A DNA stretch of 64,000 bases from positions 130,550-194,549 of the forward strand of contig JAEUJZ010000023.1 in assembly GCA_016794505.1 (NCBI GenBank), given 5' to 3'. Shown here in pieces: positions 21,963 through 27,847 of this stretch (position 1 is the stretch's first letter; every line of letters begins with the position of its first letter). The notes under the pieces are model-generated. The model ran no database searches, was not told the origin of the DNA, and saw only the letters and a list, made by a program, of their open reading frames with translations. Source of the stretch: Myxococcales bacterium. GTDB lineage: Bacteria; Myxococcota_A; Polyangia; Palsa-1104; JAEUJZ01. The translations under genes were made by a program, and so were the position numbers.

Positions 21963-23723
21963 CTAGTGCGCGCTGGGCTGTGCCGCCTGCGCCTTGTTGC
22001 CAAGCCAGCTCAGCACGCTCTCGCCGAGCTTCTTGCCGACGGTCTTTACCGTGTGCAGTGGATCTTTCATGGCGGGCGCAAGCTCGTGCACCAGATCGGC
22101 TGCCGTCGTCGTCACGCGGTGGCTCGGCCAGAAAAACGGGCTTTGGAAGCGGCGGTTCTTGGCCATAAACAAGCGAAGCTCCGCCGGGGTCACGCCGAAT
22201 TCTTTGCAGGTCGCTTCAAACTCGGCACGCGCCGCCGCACGGGCTTTGAACAGCATCATCTGCACGCGGCTATAGACGTTGACCGCGCCATCGCCGGACG
22301 TCTCGATCGGCAAGAAGATCGCGCCCGGCCATTTTTCCGTCACATACGACTGAACACCGTCGGAAACGCCCGAGCTAGGCATGCAGCCGAAGGGCTTGAC
22401 CGACAGCGTCATCGTCGACTTCTTGTGCTTGACGTTCATCACCAGCTTGCCCACTTCCATGTGGCCTTCGCCGCCGCGCAAGTGGTTGTTGTAAAGCTCG
22501 CGCGCTTCGTCGGCGACCTCGTCCATATCCGGCATGTAGTAGTCGTGCAGGCCAAGGACATGACCGATGGTCTTGAACATGACGCGGATCGCCTTGTCGG
22601 CCACCCACAGCGTCGCCAGCTTCTTCTGCACATTGACGCCGGCCAGGCCCTTGCGGCCCTGATCTTCGGTGCGAAGCTCCATGCGCTGTTTCGTATCCCA
22701 GCGATGTTCCCAGATGTTGTAAAGGAGCCAGTTGCTGACGATCTGGATGTCGACTTCGGCGCCTTCCTGTTCCAAGAAGCGCTGCAGACCATAGTTGCCG
22801 TCGCCCTCGGTGGTCATGGCCCAGAACTCGCCGATGACCGCGACCTTGGGCTTGATCTGGCTGCGATCGACCTGCACGGCGCGCAGGATGCGGCGGCACT
22901 TGATCAGCGCCAGCGCCAGGTTCGTGCGCTCGTGGAACGCCTTGTACAGAAGCTGCTTGCACTCGTGCAGCGCTTTATCGGTGGCGCCTTTTTCGACCTC
23001 GTACGGCCGCATGCGATAGCCGATGGCGTTCAGCGCATCACCCACCATGATCGCCAACACCAGCGCGATGAAGAACTTGGGGTTGAAGTCGAGGCCGGGG
23101 TTTTCGCCCGTCGCCTGCTTCAGGCCCCCCTGCTGCTGGAACAGCATGACACGGAAGCCATCGAAGCCCGCGTCGCGCAGCGCTTTGCGGTACTCGGTGA
23201 CATAGGTTCCGAAGCGGCAGGGACCGCAGGCCCCCGCGGTGACGAACAGGTAGTTGTCCACGATCTCTTTTGTGGACAGGCCCTTTTCATCGCGCAGCTG
23301 GACCAGGTGCTTGACCAAGTTGCCGACGTTGAAATAGGTCGGGTTGCACTGCGCGCGGTTGCCAAATTCCTTGCCTAGCTGCAGCGCCGCGTTGTCCGGG
23401 CAGTCGAGCGTCTGCACTTTGTAACCCAAGCCCGACAGCGCCGCCGTGATCAGGTAGTCGTGCGCCAGCGTCAAGCCGCCGAGGAGGAGCGTCGTGTGCG
23501 CTCGCTGATCGCCGGTAAATTTCTGCGGGTTCTCATCGACCCAGTGGGCCTTCATCTTGTCGAGACCCAGCGCTTCGCGCTGCTCGGCCTCAAAGCGCAG
23601 AAGCTCTTCTTCGATCTCGATTTCGTGCTGCGACTTGTTCGCTTGGACGTTGCCCAGCACCGGCAGCTGCACGCGCCCCTTTGGCGCCGACTGTCCCTGT
23701 CCTTCCAGATCCGCACGTTGCAT
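21963..23723 (-). CDS. Acyl-CoA dehydratase activase-related protein (DUF2229-type) / 2-hydroxyacyl-CoA dehydratase-like subunit
   Basis: A Cys cluster AGACGPCRFG is present. Length and composition match the partner subunit of YjiL/HgdC-type fusions. Confidence 0.5.
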   Translation of the reverse strand: MQRADLEGQGQSAPKGRVQLPVLGNVQANKSQHEIEIEEELLRFEAEQREALGLDKMKAHWVDENPQKFTGDQRAHTTLLLGGLTLAHDYLITAALSGLGYKVQTLDCPDNAALQLGKEFGNRAQCNPTYFNVGNLVKHLVQLRDEKGLSTKEIVDNYLFVTAGACGPCRFGTYVTEYRKALRDAGFDGFRVMLFQQQGGLKQATGENPGLDFNPKFFIALVLAIMVGDALNAIGYRMRPYEVEKGATDKALHECKQLLYKAFHERTNLALALIKCRRILRAVQVDRSQIKPKVAVIGEFWAMTTEGDGNYGLQRFLEQEGAEVDIQIVSNWLLYNIWEHRWDTKQRMELRTEDQGRKGLAGVNVQKKLATLWVADKAIRVMFKTIGHVLGLHDYYMPDMDEVADEARELYNNHLRGGEGHMEVGKLVMNVKHKKSTMTLSVKPFGCMPSSGVSDGVQSYVTEKWPGAIFLPIETSGDGAVNVYSRVQMMLFKARAAARAEFEATCKEFGVTPAELRLFMAKNRRFQSPFFWPSHRVTTTAADLVHELAPAMKDPLHTVKTVGKKLGESVLSWLGNKAQAAQPSAH

Positions 23724-23783
23724 GGTGACTACCCCTTGGTCCTAAACGCAGGTCCTGTTGTGGGTCGAAAAGTTCGCGATCCG

Positions 23784-26700: not shown

Positions 26701-27404
26701 CAGCAGTCGCGCAGAAACGGCAGATACGTGTTCGGCCCGCCGAGCAAGAGCACCTTGGGCTTGAGCGTATTGCCGCGCGTCAGCACCGACAGGTTCTGCA
26801 TGACGATGGCATCGGCCAGCGAGTTCATGATCTCGATCGATGGGATGCCCGACTTCACCAAGTTGACGATGTCGGTCTCGGCGAAGACACCACACTTGGC
26901 CGCGACGTGATGCAGCTTGCTGTCGTCGAACGCGATCTTGACGACTTCTTCGTTGGGCAGGCCGACCTTGAGCACGCACTTGTCGATGGTGGCGCCCGTC
27001 CCGCTGGCGCACTTGTCGTTCATCGACGTCGAAGCCTGCTTGTCGCCGGTCTTGTCGTTCTTCTTGAAGATGATGATCTTGGCGTCCTGCCCGCCTAGCT
27101 CGCACACCGAAAGGACATCGGGATGCAACGTCTCGACGGCCAGCGTGACGGCGTTGACCTCTTGCACGAACTTGGCGCCGATGTGCGGCACGATCGGCGA
27201 TGCGCCCGAGCCGGTCATAAAGATGCGCGCGGCATCCTGCGGCAGACGGGGAAAGTCGGCGGCGATGCGCTGCAAAAAGTCGAGCACGAACTCGGCCTGC
27301 TTGGTCTGGTGCCGCAGGTAGTCGCTCCACAAGATCTGCTTGCTCTGCGGGTCGACCACGACCGCCTTGACCGTCGTCGAGCCGACATCGATGCCGATCA
27401 TCAC
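23784..27404 (-). CDS. Fusion of two BadF/BadG/BcrA/BcrD-type (HgdC-like) activase ATPase domains with 2-hydroxyglutaryl-CoA dehydratase D-component-like domains
   Basis: There are two actin-fold ATPase N-termini (MIGIDVGSTTVKAVVVD and VIGMDGGSTSSKAVLID) and a Cys pattern CHFCPNNC. The start could be as far upstream as 27557. Confidence 0.6.
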   Translation of the reverse strand: MMIGIDVGSTTVKAVVVDPQSKQILWSDYLRHQTKQAEFVLDFLQRIAADFPRLPQDAARIFMTGSGASPIVPHIGAKFVQEVNAVTLAVETLHPDVLSVCELGGQDAKIIIFKKNDKTGDKQASTSMNDKCASGTGATIDKCVLKVGLPNEEVVKIAFDDSKLHHVAAKCGVFAETDIVNLVKSGIPSIEIMNSLADAIVMQNLSVLTRGNTLKPKVLLLGGPNTYLPFLRDCWRKRIPETWRDRGFDYPRDVAIEELILVPNNAQYYAAYGAVMYGTYEAKDIGRYKGSEGLSEFILHGRKARLGDTAGPPLLRAKAVEEKRDELEEFRQQYKIPRFEKKPLEPGQIVRAVIGMDGGSTSSKAVLIDYDTAEILTKEYQLSKGNPIADTKEILARIKSYVTEQGATLQLMGFGATGYAADVLEKSVKSDVNIVETVAHMMSAVHFFGDVDVICDIGGQDIKVLFMENGDIKNFRLSNQCSAGNGMLLQAMADQFGVPITKYADVAFDADLSPKFSYGCAVFLDSDRVNFQKEGYSKEELLSGLAQVLPKNVWQYVVQIPRMASLGRKFVLQGGTQHNLAAVKAQVDYIKDRVPGCEVYVHPHTGEAGAIGAAMETLRVVKRRGQSTFIGIDAAIDLKYTSKNDESTRCHFCPNNCARTFIDTETPDGDTSRYIAGFSCEKGTVESEEAMLDLTKARKKLMKQFPNLVDYESKQLFRHFYDPPPMPTADSMIDDIEVKKTLLGGVKRVPIRRLFQRSSDASAKKRASTRIGIPKVLNIWTIAPFLRTYLETLGIQRQNVVFSDDTSEEMWQEGGKYGSIDPCYPSKVAQAHIHNLLFHHHSEKKKLSAIFFPCITHIPPGLHKVMDTASCPIVAGAPEVMKAAFTKEVDFFATRGIKYVDPALTFVEPALLRRVLFETFGPLLDVTEDENDYAVEQGMRAMDVFDKEIQERGKAILEVVEEENRVAVMLIGRPYHSDPGLNHGVLEEFQALGYPIVSMRSIPKDPRWLYRFYKEDIDKGLIDGPLEVNDVWPENYSANSVQKVWAAKFAARHPNVVVLDLSSFKCGHDAPTYGLIDSVIGTSATPYSALHDIDANKPGGSIKIRVKTYAHSLKLHEERLEDIAKKKNELQLKIEEKRLQLLQLKQKQLEERKQQDESLARQIEEVKKKVAEYAARFAPTGATLEPAKGLLRIGIKRQGDDNVARL

Positions 27405-27847
27405 CGGCTCTTTGCGATCCCGACACTCTGGCGAGACGAACAAGTTCATTCCCGTGACTCCGTTCTTGACGAACCAGCACCGCAGCGAGGGGCAGCGGGG
27501 ATGCAATGAACAAACGCTAGACTGACGGTTCAGTCTATGGGGACACACTACGGGCACCGCGCGTTGGGGTCAACAGAAAATCTAGGCCACCTGCTGCGTG
27601 CGTATCGCCGGCTTTCCGTCGGGAACATGGCAAATGGCCGGGCCGCGCATGGCTGGGTCGGATGTCGTGCCCGTTCCGCGAGAGCTGGCTGGGTGGGTCT
27701 TCTGGCCGGGTCCGTTTGTCGATACAGTGAAACGAGGGTCCGTCTGTGGGCCGATCGCCTGAACGTGCAAAGGACAGGACGGGGGACGATGGCGGCGAAG
27801 GGGCGAGCGCCGGGCTCCCACGGGTCGTGAGGTCAGCAGAGGTTCCC

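What the first reader, a model, noticed from the sequence alone, without database searches (positions are those of the whole stretch)
21963..27557. 2-hydroxyacyl-CoA-dehydratase-like radical enzyme system (double HgdC-type activase fused to dehydratase domains, plus DUF2229 partner)
A 1.2-1.26-kDa-scale protein (1207-1257 aa) carries two HgdC/BadF-type ATPase modules (MIGIDVGSTTVKAVVVD and VIGMDGGSTSSKAVLID) followed by dehydratase-component-like domains with Cys clusters (CHFCPNNC). It is immediately followed by a 586-aa protein with an AGACGPCRFG cluster typical of the DUF2229 activase-related family. Characterised members act in strictly anaerobic amino-acid fermentation or benzoyl-CoA reduction. 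The substrate of these fused YjiL/YjiM-like systems is unknown. Their presence in a presumably aerobic myxobacterial genome is unexplained.
Basis: partly seen in the sequence, partly recalled or inferred. Interest (0 to 1): 0.6.

Follow-up and report, generated by a model that had tools for sequence, protein, structure and literature searches.

The report
Split PlsA/PlsR-type ether-lipid reductase homologue
Two adjacent genes in a myxobacterial metagenome genome encode a self-contained, ATP-driven iron-sulfur reductase. It has the same build as the enzymes that anaerobes use to turn membrane-lipid ester bonds into ether bonds, but it belongs to a separate, uncharacterised branch found mainly in Polyangia and spore-forming Bacillota, including genera generally described as aerobic.

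Summary
Both ORFs are real and form a two-gene operon on the minus strand. A runs 23784-27449 (1221 aa, 136 kDa) and R runs 21963-23723 (586 aa, 66 kDa).

A carries two HgdC-type ATPase modules, an invariant 4-Cys motif, DUF2229 (PF09989) and a coiled-coil tail.

R aligns with the C-terminal third of the single-chain Listeria Pls-type enzyme (E 2e-27). A plus R are colinear with Pls-type proteins at 28-30% identity. All 14 putative cluster cysteines are invariant, and both reductase halves model as HAD/BCR/DCCP folds.

The pair is therefore a split Act1-Act2-Red1 + Red2 enzyme of the PlsA/PlsR-Ger kind (anaerobic plasmalogen or alkyl-ether synthases), not a YjiL/YjiM system or a true 2-hydroxyacyl-CoA dehydratase.

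It belongs to a tight separate clade (57-84% identity across phyla). The clade occurs in at least 597 matched stretches in a one-genome-per-species collection, including Sorangium, Polyangium, Paenibacillus and Brevibacillus.

Two context clues recur: a FadR-like TetR gene with a conserved palindromic operator, and occasional cardiolipin-synthase/PLD neighbours. Substrate and product are untested.

Verdict: new variant of a known kind, of moderate interest.

The parts
23784..27449 (-). Gene A: 1221-aa (136 kDa) Act1-Act2-4Cys-Red1(DUF2229)-coiled-coil protein. It corresponds to NCBI MBL9003820.1 'CoA activase'.
   Evidence: ORF; exact product in the public collection; Pfam PF01869 x2 plus PF09989; TIGR00241; GGAG before ATG 27449.
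26460..27401 (-). Act1, the first HgdC/BcrAD-type ATPase module (aa 17-330). Motifs DVGST (aa 21) and GGQD (aa 119); cluster Cys A147 and A186.
   Evidence: PDB sequence hit to MbdP 9gai_C over aa 17-238; motifs; both Cys invariant in 13/13 sequences.
25548..26348 (-). Act2, the second HgdC-type ATPase module (aa 368-634). Motifs DGGST (aa 372) and GGQD (aa 473); cluster Cys A496 and A535.
   Evidence: Aligns to HgdC 1hux_A at E 2e-22. C496 and C535 fall on HgdC's NDKCAAGTG and SSTCTVFAESE cysteines. Invariant in 13/13.
25365..25457 (-). Invariant 4-Cys motif C-x2-C-x3-C-x22-C (A665, A668, A672, A695; 'CHFCPNNC...C'). Probable metal (Fe-S or Zn) site between Act2 and Red1.
   Evidence: All four Cys invariant in the subfamily and in Pls-type proteins. 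Modelled as a beta-hairpin region with moderate pLDDT. The metal identity is inferred.
24048..25112 (-). Red1, the reductase half containing DUF2229 (Pfam match at 24402-25097). Invariant Cys A838, A886 and A1081.
   Evidence: PF09989 E 1.1e-47. AF2 model pLDDT 81. Foldseek best PDB matches are DCCP 7yyl/6eno, then MbdON and BzdNO. Cys invariant.
23787..24047 (-). Charged coiled-coil-like C-terminal tail of A (aa 1135-1221). It lies at the Red1/Red2 split site, is absent from Pls-type proteins, and is shorter in Bacillota members.
   Evidence: Insertion analysis on the full-length alignment; sequence.
23724..23783 (-). 60-nt A-R intergenic spacer with a GGGG ribosome-binding element. A and R are co-transcribed (inferred).
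   Evidence: Sequence. A lies immediately upstream of R on the same strand in nearly all loci where both genes were called: A in 77 and R in 74 of 82 loci.
21963..23723 (-). Gene R: 586-aa (66 kDa) Red2 subunit, the PlsR-equivalent. It corresponds to NCBI MBL9003819.1. Invariant Cys R126, R169 and R447; R166 is clade-specific.
   Evidence: Aligns to Listeria Pls aa 999-1444 at E 2e-27. No Pfam, NCBIfam or PDB sequence hit. AF2 model pLDDT 75. The Foldseek top 16 are all HadBC, DCCP, BzdNO or MbdON. Cys conservation.
27518..27537 (.). Perfect palindrome TAGACTGA-ACCG-TCAGTCTA, 69-88 nt upstream of the A start codon. It is a conserved operator of the A-R operon with core GACTGAC-N2-GTCAGTC.
   Evidence: Unique in the window, with 0 expected by chance. 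The core is exact in 23 of 86 loci. With <=2 mismatches it occurs in 37 of 63 loci, always 57-221 nt upstream of the GIDVGST motif and often as a tandem pair.

Best explanation
The two genes encode one self-sufficient, ATP-driven, iron-sulfur reductase complex of the PlsA/PlsR-Ger type.

Proposed mechanism (inferred by analogy with HgdC/HAD, BCR, DCCP and PlsAR):
1. Act1 and Act2 form an intramolecular pseudo-dimer. They hold a bridging [4Fe-4S] cluster through two Cys from each module (A147/A186 and A496/A535).
2. The cluster is reduced by a cellular low-potential donor such as ferredoxin or flavodoxin. One natural fusion points to an NAD(P)H-FAD-FeS module as the donor.
3. ATP binding and hydrolysis at the two intact ASKHA sites push that electron into the clusters of the Red1 (DUF2229) / Red2 (gene R) pseudo-heterodimer. 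Each half offers three invariant Cys.

Proposed substrate (inferred): the carbonyl of a fatty-acyl ester on a membrane glycerolipid. It would be reduced and dehydrated to an ether, either vinyl ether as with PlsAR or alkyl ether as with Ger.

Proposed regulation (inferred): expression appears to be held by a FadR-like TetR repressor acting on the GACTGAC-N2-GTCAGTC operator upstream of A.

What is shown: the architecture, the homology, the Cys and ATPase motifs, the folds, the synteny and the operator. What is inferred: cluster types, electron donor, lipid substrate, product and oxygen behaviour.
For: Architecture and homology:
- PF01869 x2 plus PF09989 in A. HgdC alignment places its cluster Cys on A496/A535.
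- R aligns to the C-terminal third of the single-ORF Listeria Pls-type protein at E 2e-27.
- A+R are colinear with Listeria, Haliovirga, Collinsella and split Fusobacterium Pls-type proteins at 28-29.5% identity over about 1400 columns. 14 Cys are invariant in 13/13 sequences.
- Many polar residues are invariant across both clades (RPYE, GEG, GEF motifs).

Folds:
- The best PDB fold matches of Red2 are HadC, DCCP, BzdNO and MbdON; those of Red1 are DCCP, MbdON and BzdNO.

Literature:
- The same BBD + Red2 build makes plasmalogens (PlsA/PlsR) or 1-O-alkyl glycerols (Ger) when expressed in E. coli (PMC12838417, PMC13159169).
- DUF2229 appears in the held literature essentially only in the Ger work.

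Context:
- A lies directly upstream of R in nearly all loci where both genes were called; A was called in 77 and R in 74 of 82 loci.
- Cardiolipin-synthase/PLD genes lie near the pair in 4 Paenibacillaceae and 6 mostly Kofleriaceae loci.
- DAG kinase, MGDG synthase and a lysophospholipase-like hydrolase lie downstream in Brevibacillus laterosporus.
- CMAS-like methyltransferases occur among immediate neighbours.
- The adjacent TetR resembles acyl-CoA-sensing FadR/YsiA over its full length.
- No CoA-transferase or 2-hydroxyacid dehydrogenase recurs nearby.
- An R::GltD-like fusion (P0122) supports a redox role.
Against: - Identity to Pls-type enzymes is only 27-30%. The pair sits in a separate clade on a long branch, so orthology to a verified enzyme is not shown.
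- Experimentally verified C. perfringens, T. maritima and D. alkenivorans sequences could not be obtained for the tree.
- The lipid-gene neighbourhood is a minority signal: about 10 of 82 loci, clustered in two lineages. It is absent from the window itself.
- A FadR-like regulator fits an acyl-CoA substrate equally well.
- Published work states that Ger is restricted to anaerobes and active only anaerobically (PMC13159169). This clade, however, occurs in genera generally regarded as aerobic (Sorangium, Polyangium, Cohnella, Brevibacillus).
- To my knowledge no plasmalogens are reported from Paenibacillus or Brevibacillus.
- Myxobacteria already have the ElbD, Agps and CarF routes to ether lipids.
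Confidence: 0.5

Rival explanations
1. The same ATP-driven Fe-S machinery acts on a different, still unknown substrate. This could be another ester or carbonyl compound, or a small molecule as with the double-cubane protein DCCP. On this view the clade diverged in function from PlsAR/Ger.
For: The clade is separate at only 27-30% identity. It has clade-specific Cys (A158, A249, A470, R166) and several insertions. Red1's best fold match is DCCP. The clade occurs in genera where no PlsAR/Ger-type product is known to me. The neighbourhood is mostly uninformative.
Against: Full-length colinearity with Pls-type enzymes, with invariant polar motifs in both reductase halves. The only recurrent functional neighbours are lipid enzymes and a FadR-like regulator. 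DCCP itself is a homodimer with a separate reductase and shows no sequence-level match here.
Confidence: 0.3
2. This is the reader's and NCBI's reading: a 2-hydroxyacyl-CoA dehydratase-like or other acyl-CoA-directed radical enzyme with its activase fused on. It would work on a soluble CoA thioester.
For: NCBI names the proteins '2-hydroxyglutaryl-CoA dehydratase' and 'CoA activase'. The best PDB fold match of R is HadC. The adjacent TetR resembles acyl-CoA-binding FadR.
Against: No PF06050 hit in either protein. No sequence-level match to any HgdAB, HadBC, BcrBC or Bzd chain. No CoA-transferase, 2-hydroxyacid dehydrogenase or fermentation genes occur in the window or recur in 239 neighbouring genes. 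The DUF2229 architecture is only known from lipid ester reductases (PMC13159169).
Confidence: 0.15
3. The genes are an inactive relic or a mis-assembly with no current function.
For: None beyond the oddity of an oxygen-labile enzyme type in genera regarded as aerobic.
Against: The ORFs are intact with strong codon bias. Identity is 57-84% across two phyla over about 1700 aa. All ATPase motifs and 14 Cys are invariant. The operon order and the operator are conserved. At least 597 matched genomic stretches carry it.
Confidence: 0.01

Closest known systems
PlsA/PlsR anaerobic plasmalogen synthase (C. perfringens CPE1194/1195; single-ORF forms in Listeria, Enterococcus, Lactococcus, Bifidobacterium)
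   Same: Same order of modules: Act1-Act2-Red1(DUF2229)-Red2. The split into two genes between Red1 and Red2 also occurs in C. perfringens and Fusobacterium (PMC12838417). All putative cluster Cys are shared. R aligns to the Listeria C-terminal region at E 2e-27. A TetR-family gene lies next to the enzyme gene in some members of both groups (PMC9702350).
   Different: Only 27-30% identity and a separate clade. R is about 140-180 aa longer. A coiled-coil insertion sits at the split site, and there are extra clade-specific Cys. Hosts include genera regarded as aerobic. The product is untested.
Ger, glycerol ester reductase (T. maritima Tmari_0479; D. alkenivorans SHJ90043)
   Same: Two activation domains plus DUF2229 ('BBD') form the conserved core (PMC13159169). 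The presumed chemistry, ATP-driven reduction of a lipid ester, is the same.
   Different: Ger is a single polypeptide whose C-terminal part gives small PF06050/PF09989 hits. Here the C-terminal half is a separate gene with no Pfam hit. Ger is reported to be limited to anaerobes and active only anaerobically.
2-Hydroxyacyl-CoA dehydratases with activator (HgdC + HgdAB, HadI + HadBC)
   Same: HgdC-type ATPase with bridging-cluster Cys. The R fold is nearest to HadC. The general principle of ATP-coupled electron injection is shared.
   Different: The activator is a fused tandem, not a free homodimer. The catalytic halves lack PF06050 and show no sequence-level similarity. There is no fermentation gene context.
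DCCP / DCCP-R (double-cubane cluster protein and its reductase; E. coli YjiM/YjiL are relatives)
   Same: Fold similarity of both Red1 and Red2 to DCCP. The ATP-dependent reductase partner is of HgdC type (7yyl_E hit).
   Different: DCCP is a homodimer with six Cys per [8Fe-9S] cluster and a separate DCCP-R. Here there is a pseudo-heterodimer with 3+3 Cys and a fused tandem ATPase. YjiL matches only the ATPase part, covering 40-46% of the query at 23-26% identity.

Membership tests
BCR/HAD/DCCP superfamily of ATP-dependent Fe-S radical/reductase enzymes | HgdC/BcrAD-type ASKHA ATPase with two Cys per module for a bridging [4Fe-4S] cluster | tested here: met
   PF01869 x2 at 241 bits; TIGR00241 at 187 bits. 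Alignment to 1hux puts A496 and A535 on the HgdC cluster Cys. A147/A186 and A496/A535 are invariant in 13/13. DxGS(T/S) and GGQD motifs are intact in both modules.
BCR/HAD/DCCP superfamily of ATP-dependent Fe-S radical/reductase enzymes | Catalytic subunits with the HAD/BCR/DCCP fold | tested here: met
   Foldseek against the PDB. For R, the top 16 are all HadBC, DCCP, BzdNO or MbdON (E down to 6e-4, TM 0.35/0.50). For Red1, the top hits are DCCP, then MbdON and BzdNO (E 9e-4). TM-scores are modest and there are no sequence-level hits.
BCR/HAD/DCCP superfamily of ATP-dependent Fe-S radical/reductase enzymes | Fe-S clusters actually present and ATP-coupled electron transfer | not testable with these tools
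   Needs anaerobic purification with EPR or Mössbauer spectroscopy and an ATPase-coupled assay.
PlsA/PlsR-Ger lipid ester reductases | Module order Act1-Act2-Red1(DUF2229)-Red2, fused or split after Red1 | tested here: met
   Pfam; R aligns to Listeria aa 999-1444; full-length colinear alignment; a split Fusobacterium homologue.
PlsA/PlsR-Ger lipid ester reductases | Conserved Cys set in Act, linker, Red1 and Red2 | tested here: met
   14 Cys invariant across 9 clade members and 4 Pls-type proteins.
PlsA/PlsR-Ger lipid ester reductases | Orthology: falls in the same clade as an experimentally verified enzyme | tested here: inconclusive
   The NJ tree and identity matrix place it in a separate tight clade. 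Identity to Pls-type proteins is 27-30%, against 35-46% among the Pls-type proteins themselves. The verified C. perfringens, T. maritima and D. alkenivorans sequences were not retrievable.
PlsA/PlsR-Ger lipid ester reductases | Host is a strict or facultative anaerobe (as stated in PMC13159169 and PMC9702350) | tested here: not met
   Clade members occur in Sorangium cellulosum, Polyangium, Cohnella and Brevibacillus; that these are aerobic is established knowledge, not tested here. Some hosts are facultative (Paenibacillus macerans, Anaerobacillus). The MAG's own physiology is unknown.
PlsA/PlsR-Ger lipid ester reductases | Produces vinyl-ether or alkyl-ether glycerolipids | not testable with these tools
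   Requires heterologous expression or a knockout, plus lipid analysis.
2-Hydroxyacyl-CoA dehydratase proper (HgdAB/HadBC/FldBC) | PF06050 (HGD-D) catalytic subunits | tested here: not met
   No PF06050 hit in A at E <= 0.01 or in R at E <= 10. Profile searches of Red1 and Red2 against PDB sequences find no HAD chain.
2-Hydroxyacyl-CoA dehydratase proper (HgdAB/HadBC/FldBC) | Fermentation context (CoA-transferase, 2-hydroxyacid dehydrogenase) | tested here: not met
   None in the window. None recurrent among 239 genes flanking the pair in 82 loci.
YjiL/YjiM (DCCP-R/DCCP-like) | Stand-alone ~255-aa activase next to a DCCP/HGD-D protein | tested here: not met
   YjiL matches only the ATPase part of A. 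The architecture here is a tandem activase fused to DUF2229.

The most novel reading that the evidence does not exclude
This clade may be an oxygen-tolerant, or strictly hypoxia-induced, version of the 'anaerobic' ester-to-ether lipid reductase. It appears to have spread by horizontal transfer between soil Polyangia and spore-forming Bacillota. If so, myxobacteria regarded as obligately aerobic would have a third ether-lipid route independent of ElbD/Agps and CarF, and bacilli would gain ether lipids that nobody has looked for. Alternatively, the clade uses the same machinery on a new lipid class such as cardiolipin.
Probability: 0.3. Interest if true: 0.65.

Novelty: new variant of a known kind. 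Interest (0 to 1): 0.45.

Why it matters
PlsA/PlsR and Ger are the only known enzymes that convert finished ester lipids into ether lipids without oxygen. They are used as genomic markers for anaerobic ether-lipid and brGDGT producers. This clade is highly conserved, occurs in at least 597 matched stretches of a one-genome-per-species collection, and is hosted by genera regarded as aerobic or facultative. That has two consequences:

- Homology screens for 'Ger/PlsA' will pull in a branch whose function and oxygen relations are untested.
- Either ether-lipid synthesis by this chemistry is not confined to anaerobes, or the DUF2229 machinery has a second substrate.

The conserved operator and the FadR-like TetR give a direct handle for testing regulation. 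The split, coiled-coil-linked form could help structural work on a family with no solved structure.

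Tried and rejected
- Pfam, NCBIfam and PDB sequence searches of the partner, as a single sequence and as profiles, gave nothing. Only fold comparison and pairwise alignment to a Listeria protein placed it.
- hhalign of Red1 against Red2 was weak (probability 13%), although it put the first Cys motifs in register. The paralogy of the two halves is therefore suggested, not shown.
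- Jackson et al. 2021 (the PlsA/PlsR discovery paper) is not held. The supplement of the Ger paper is not held either. PlsA signature motifs and verified sequences could therefore not be checked.
- Literature searches linking Paenibacillus, Brevibacillus or Sorangium to this enzyme or to plasmalogens found nothing relevant.
- Similarity between the clade's TetR and the Collinsella TetR next to its pls gene is confined to the HTH, so there is no evidence of a shared regulator.
- The E. coli-type promoter scan and an Rfam scan of the operon region found nothing meaningful.
- A second operator-like site at 61120-61135 (2 mismatches, overlapping an SDR start codon) is within chance expectation and was dropped.
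- The window's own neighbours are a Ser/Thr kinase, FHA/TPR proteins, a zinc-ribbon/FxLYD protein, CoaX and a thioredoxin-like protein. None is conserved next to the pair elsewhere, so they were not counted as part of the system.
- The GltD-like fusion P0122 is a single contig from one sample, with no parallel in the other 82 loci. It is treated as a hint only.

Full report
**1. What is in the sequence**

The finding covers two co-directional ORFs on the minus strand, 23784-27557 and 21963-23723. Both have the codon-position GC pattern of real genes in this 63% GC window (GC3 0.82-0.83, GC2 0.38-0.39).

The exact 586-aa product and a 1221-aa product starting at ATG 27449 are public proteins of a 'Myxococcales bacterium' metagenome-assembled genome. 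They are MBL9003819.1 '2-hydroxyglutaryl-CoA dehydratase' and MBL9003820.1 'CoA activase'. GGAG precedes ATG 27449. The genes are 60 nt apart, with GGGG before the second ATG.

I call the genes A (136 kDa) and R (66 kDa).

**2. Anatomy of A and R**

A carries two PF01869 BcrAD_BadFG modules (E 1.8e-71; TIGR00241 above cut-off) and PF09989 DUF2229 at aa 785-1016 (E 1.1e-47). Its closest solved relatives by sequence are HgdC, HadI, MbdQ/MbdP and DCCP-R.

The HgdC alignment puts A496 and A535 on the two cysteines that ligate the bridging [4Fe-4S] cluster in HgdC. Act1 has the same two motifs at A147 and A186. Both modules keep the DxGS(T/S) and GGQD ATPase motifs.

A ends in an 87-aa charged helical tail.

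R has no Pfam hit up to E 10, no NCBIfam hit up to E 1, and no PDB sequence hit. PF06050 (HGD-D) is not detected in either protein.

**3. What R is**

A tblastn of A against plasmid records found single-ORF '2-hydroxyacyl-CoA dehydratase / acyl-CoA dehydratase activase' proteins of 1449-1479 aa in Listeria, Haliovirga and Collinsella. It also found a split 975 + 404 aa pair in Fusobacterium.

R aligns with Listeria residues 999-1444 (E 2e-27, 24% identity over 479 columns). R is thus the equivalent of the C-terminal 'Red2' part, called PlsR where it is a separate gene.

In a full-length alignment, A+R are colinear with these four proteins at 28-29.5% identity. Fourteen Cys are invariant in all 13 sequences: 2+2 in the ATPases, 4 in the linker motif, 3 in Red1 and 3 in Red2. 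Many polar residues are invariant too.

AlphaFold models support the fold assignment:
- The R model (pLDDT 75) gives a Foldseek PDB top 16 made up only of HadBC, DCCP, BzdNO and MbdON chains.
- The Red1 model (pLDDT 81) is nearest to DCCP, then MbdON and BzdNO.

A profile-profile comparison of Red1 with Red2 is weak but puts their first Cys motifs in register. This is consistent with a pseudo-heterodimer like HadB/HadC.

**4. Link to known enzymes**

The literature held here describes this build as follows.
- PlsA/PlsR of C. perfringens is a two-gene operon of the BCR/HAD family. Single-ORF forms occur in facultative anaerobes. The modules are Act1, Act2, Red1 and Red2. These enzymes make plasmalogens when expressed in E. 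coli (PMC12838417, PMC9702350).
- Ger of T. maritima and D. alkenivorans is a 'modified PlsA' with a conserved BBD core (two PF01869 plus PF09989). It makes 1-O-alkyl glycerols, and only under anaerobic conditions (PMC13159169).
- Assigning PlsA versus Ger from sequence alone is said to be impossible at present (PMC13274423).
- DUF2229 appears in the held literature essentially only in the Ger work.

The YjiL/YjiM analogy fits only the ATPase part.

**5. A distinct clade**

The pair is not a close relative of the Pls-type proteins. In the identity matrix and NJ tree, nine A+R pairs form a tight clade at 57-84% identity. They come from Myxococcota (this MAG, Sorangium, Polyangium, Kofleriaceae, Sandaracinaceae) and Bacillota (Brevibacillus, Paenibacillus, Cohnella, Bacillus chungangensis). 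The four Pls-type proteins are 35-46% identical to each other and 27-30% identical to the clade.

The Bacillota sequences are as close to this MAG (67%) as Sorangium is (65%). This points to horizontal transfer between the phyla. The Brevibacillus locus has native low GC (43%).

Clade-specific features are:
- a fourth Cys in Red2 (R166) and three extra Cys in A;
- several insertions;
- the coiled-coil tail of A together with an N-terminal helix of R at the split site.

The family is large. There were 8000 or more word-filtered hits for R and 1905 50%-identity representatives at E <= 1e-3. At least 597 stretches in a one-genome-per-species collection matched clade-specific motifs.

Named hosts include Sorangium cellulosum So0157-2 and So ce26, Polyangium jinanense, Labilithrix, Sandaracinus, Paenibacillus tyrfis, P. 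macerans and P. oralis, Cohnella, Brevibacillus borstelensis and Anaerobacillus. Several of these are aerobes by established knowledge. That conflicts with the published view that Ger is limited to anaerobes (PMC13159169). The physiology of the MAG itself is unknown.

**6. Gene context**

I called ORFs in 82 loci and clustered them. A was found in 77 loci and R in 74, and wherever both were called A lies directly upstream of R on the same strand.

The only other frequent neighbour is a TetR-family gene, in 33 loci and usually divergent from A. Over its full length it resembles the acyl-CoA-sensing FadR/YsiA-type TetRs: 3whb 'Fatty acid metabolism regulator protein', 1vi0, 5gp9 and 3ang. The window has no such gene nearby.

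A Pfam census of the 239 genes at positions ±1 and ±2 gives:
- TetR, 26;
- glutaredoxin-like, 9;
- PLD/cardiolipin synthase, 5;
- SAM methyltransferases, 4 (two hit the cyclopropane-synthase family);
- a few esterases;
- no recurrent CoA-transferase, hydroxyacid dehydrogenase or acyl-CoA dehydrogenase.

Within 10 kb, a classic cardiolipin synthase accompanies the pair in four Paenibacillaceae, in different arrangements. A PLD-like gene accompanies it in six mostly Kofleriaceae loci. In Brevibacillus laterosporus the downstream genes are an Exo_endo_phos protein, a DAG kinase, an MGDG synthase and a lysophospholipase-like hydrolase.

This lipid signal is real but a minority one, and it is phylogenetically clustered. 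The window's own neighbours are not conserved with the pair.

**7. Regulation (new observations)**

A perfect palindrome, TAGACTGA-ACCG-TCAGTCTA, lies at 27518-27537, 69-88 nt upstream of the A start. It is unique in the window, with zero expected by chance.

Its core GACTGA-N4-TCAGTC occurs exactly in 23 of 86 loci. With up to two mismatches it occurs in 37 of 63 loci with usable upstream sequence. It always lies 57-221 nt before the conserved GIDVGST motif, and is often a tandem pair 24 bp apart. It is found only in Myxococcota-type loci, with or without an adjacent TetR gene. I read it as the operator of the operon, most likely the TetR site (inferred).

In three Paenibacillus loci a Crp/Fnr-type box sits at a fixed distance before the start codon. 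It is a perfect TGTGATAAATATCACA in P. tyrfis. The count alone is not significant against shuffles (37 of 500 shuffles reach it), so this is a lead for anaerobic induction, not a result.

**8. Fusions**

Within the clade there are three kinds of fusion:
- a BBD-R fusion in the Pls-like order (P0123, 1579 aa);
- a reverse R-BBD fusion (P0179, 1623 aa);
- one R fused to a GltD/NfnB-like module with Fer4_20, an FAD/NAD(P)H domain and two ferredoxin clusters (P0122).

The last suggests NAD(P)H-derived electrons. It is a single contig with no parallel in the other loci.

**9. Interpretation**

It is well supported (about 0.9) that A+R form an ATP-dependent Fe-S reductase or dehydratase of the BCR/HAD/DCCP kind, built like PlsA/PlsR-Ger.

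It is plausible but unproven (about 0.5) that the enzyme reduces a glycerolipid acyl ester to an ether.

The main rival (0.3) is the same machinery on another substrate. The CoA-thioester reading implied by the database names is weaker (0.15): no HGD-D domain, no sequence similarity to any HAD or BCR catalytic chain, and no fermentation context.

I file the pair as a new variant of a known kind. It would matter mainly for how PlsA/Ger homologues are used as markers of anaerobic ether-lipid producers. It also bears on whether this chemistry works in, or is reserved for, low-oxygen phases of aerobic soil bacteria.

Noticed in passing
window 27518-27537; also upstream of gene A in L004, L006, L008, L013, L014, L019, L021, L024, L038, L039, L047 and others: Conserved palindromic operator GACTGAC-N2-GTCAGTC upstream of the A-R operon in Myxococcota-type loci. 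It is often a tandem pair 24 bp apart and is absent from Bacillota loci.
   Followed up: yes
L028 6433-6448, L052 3915-3930, L074 6395-6410: A Crp/Fnr-type box (TGTGA-N6-TCACA, perfect in Paenibacillus tyrfis) sits at the same distance before the A start codon in three Paenibacillus species. It hints at anaerobic induction. The count alone is not significant against shuffles.
   Followed up: partly
L086 3436-7251 (protein P0122): A natural fusion of the R subunit to a GltD/NfnB-like NAD(P)H-FAD-FeS module with two ferredoxin-type clusters. It comes from a single metagenome contig and may be a clue to the electron donor.
   Followed up: partly
L002 (NZ_CP011076.1 861437-884796): The 1.38-Mb 'plasmid unnamed2' of Brevibacillus laterosporus B9 carries the same split pair (73% and 60% identity). 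The pair lies between thiopeptide/lanthipeptide-type genes (YcaO, Lant_dehydr) and a lipid gene run (DAG kinase, MGDG synthase, lysophospholipase-like). PLSDB lists almost no annotation for this record.
   Followed up: partly
proteins P0123 (1579 aa) and P0179 (1623 aa): Within the clade the two genes also occur fused. One fusion is in the Pls-like order BBD-R and the other in the reverse order R-BBD.
   Followed up: partly
window 37147-38124 and 62066-63109: A CarH-like regulator (MerR HTH plus B12-binding domains) and a polyprenyl synthetase. Together they suggest light-responsive carotenoid control as in Myxococcus, which would fit a light-exposed, oxic lifestyle for this MAG.
   Followed up: no
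window 27746-29752, 29928-31055, 30946-32376, 32420-34699: A Ser/Thr protein kinase is transcribed divergently from gene A. It is followed by TPR/SUKH, tandem-FHA/TPR and FHA-T2SSE ATPase genes. This signalling cluster is not conserved next to the pair in other genomes.
   Followed up: partly
window 20747-22003, 18033-18944, 16907-18067: Downstream of R lie a zinc-ribbon/FxLYD-domain membrane protein, a type III pantothenate kinase and a thioredoxin/AhpC-TSA-like protein. None recurs with the pair elsewhere.
   Followed up: partly
window 61120-61135: A weak operator-like site (GCCTGTCATGTCAGTC, 2 mismatches) overlaps the start of a short-chain dehydrogenase gene. It is within chance expectation.
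   Followed up: partly
L012, L013, L032, L039, L046 and other Kofleriaceae/Haliangiales loci, directly downstream of R: Glutaredoxin-like genes follow R. One type lacks an obvious CxxC motif and the other has CPWT. They may be redox helpers or protectors.
   Followed up: partly
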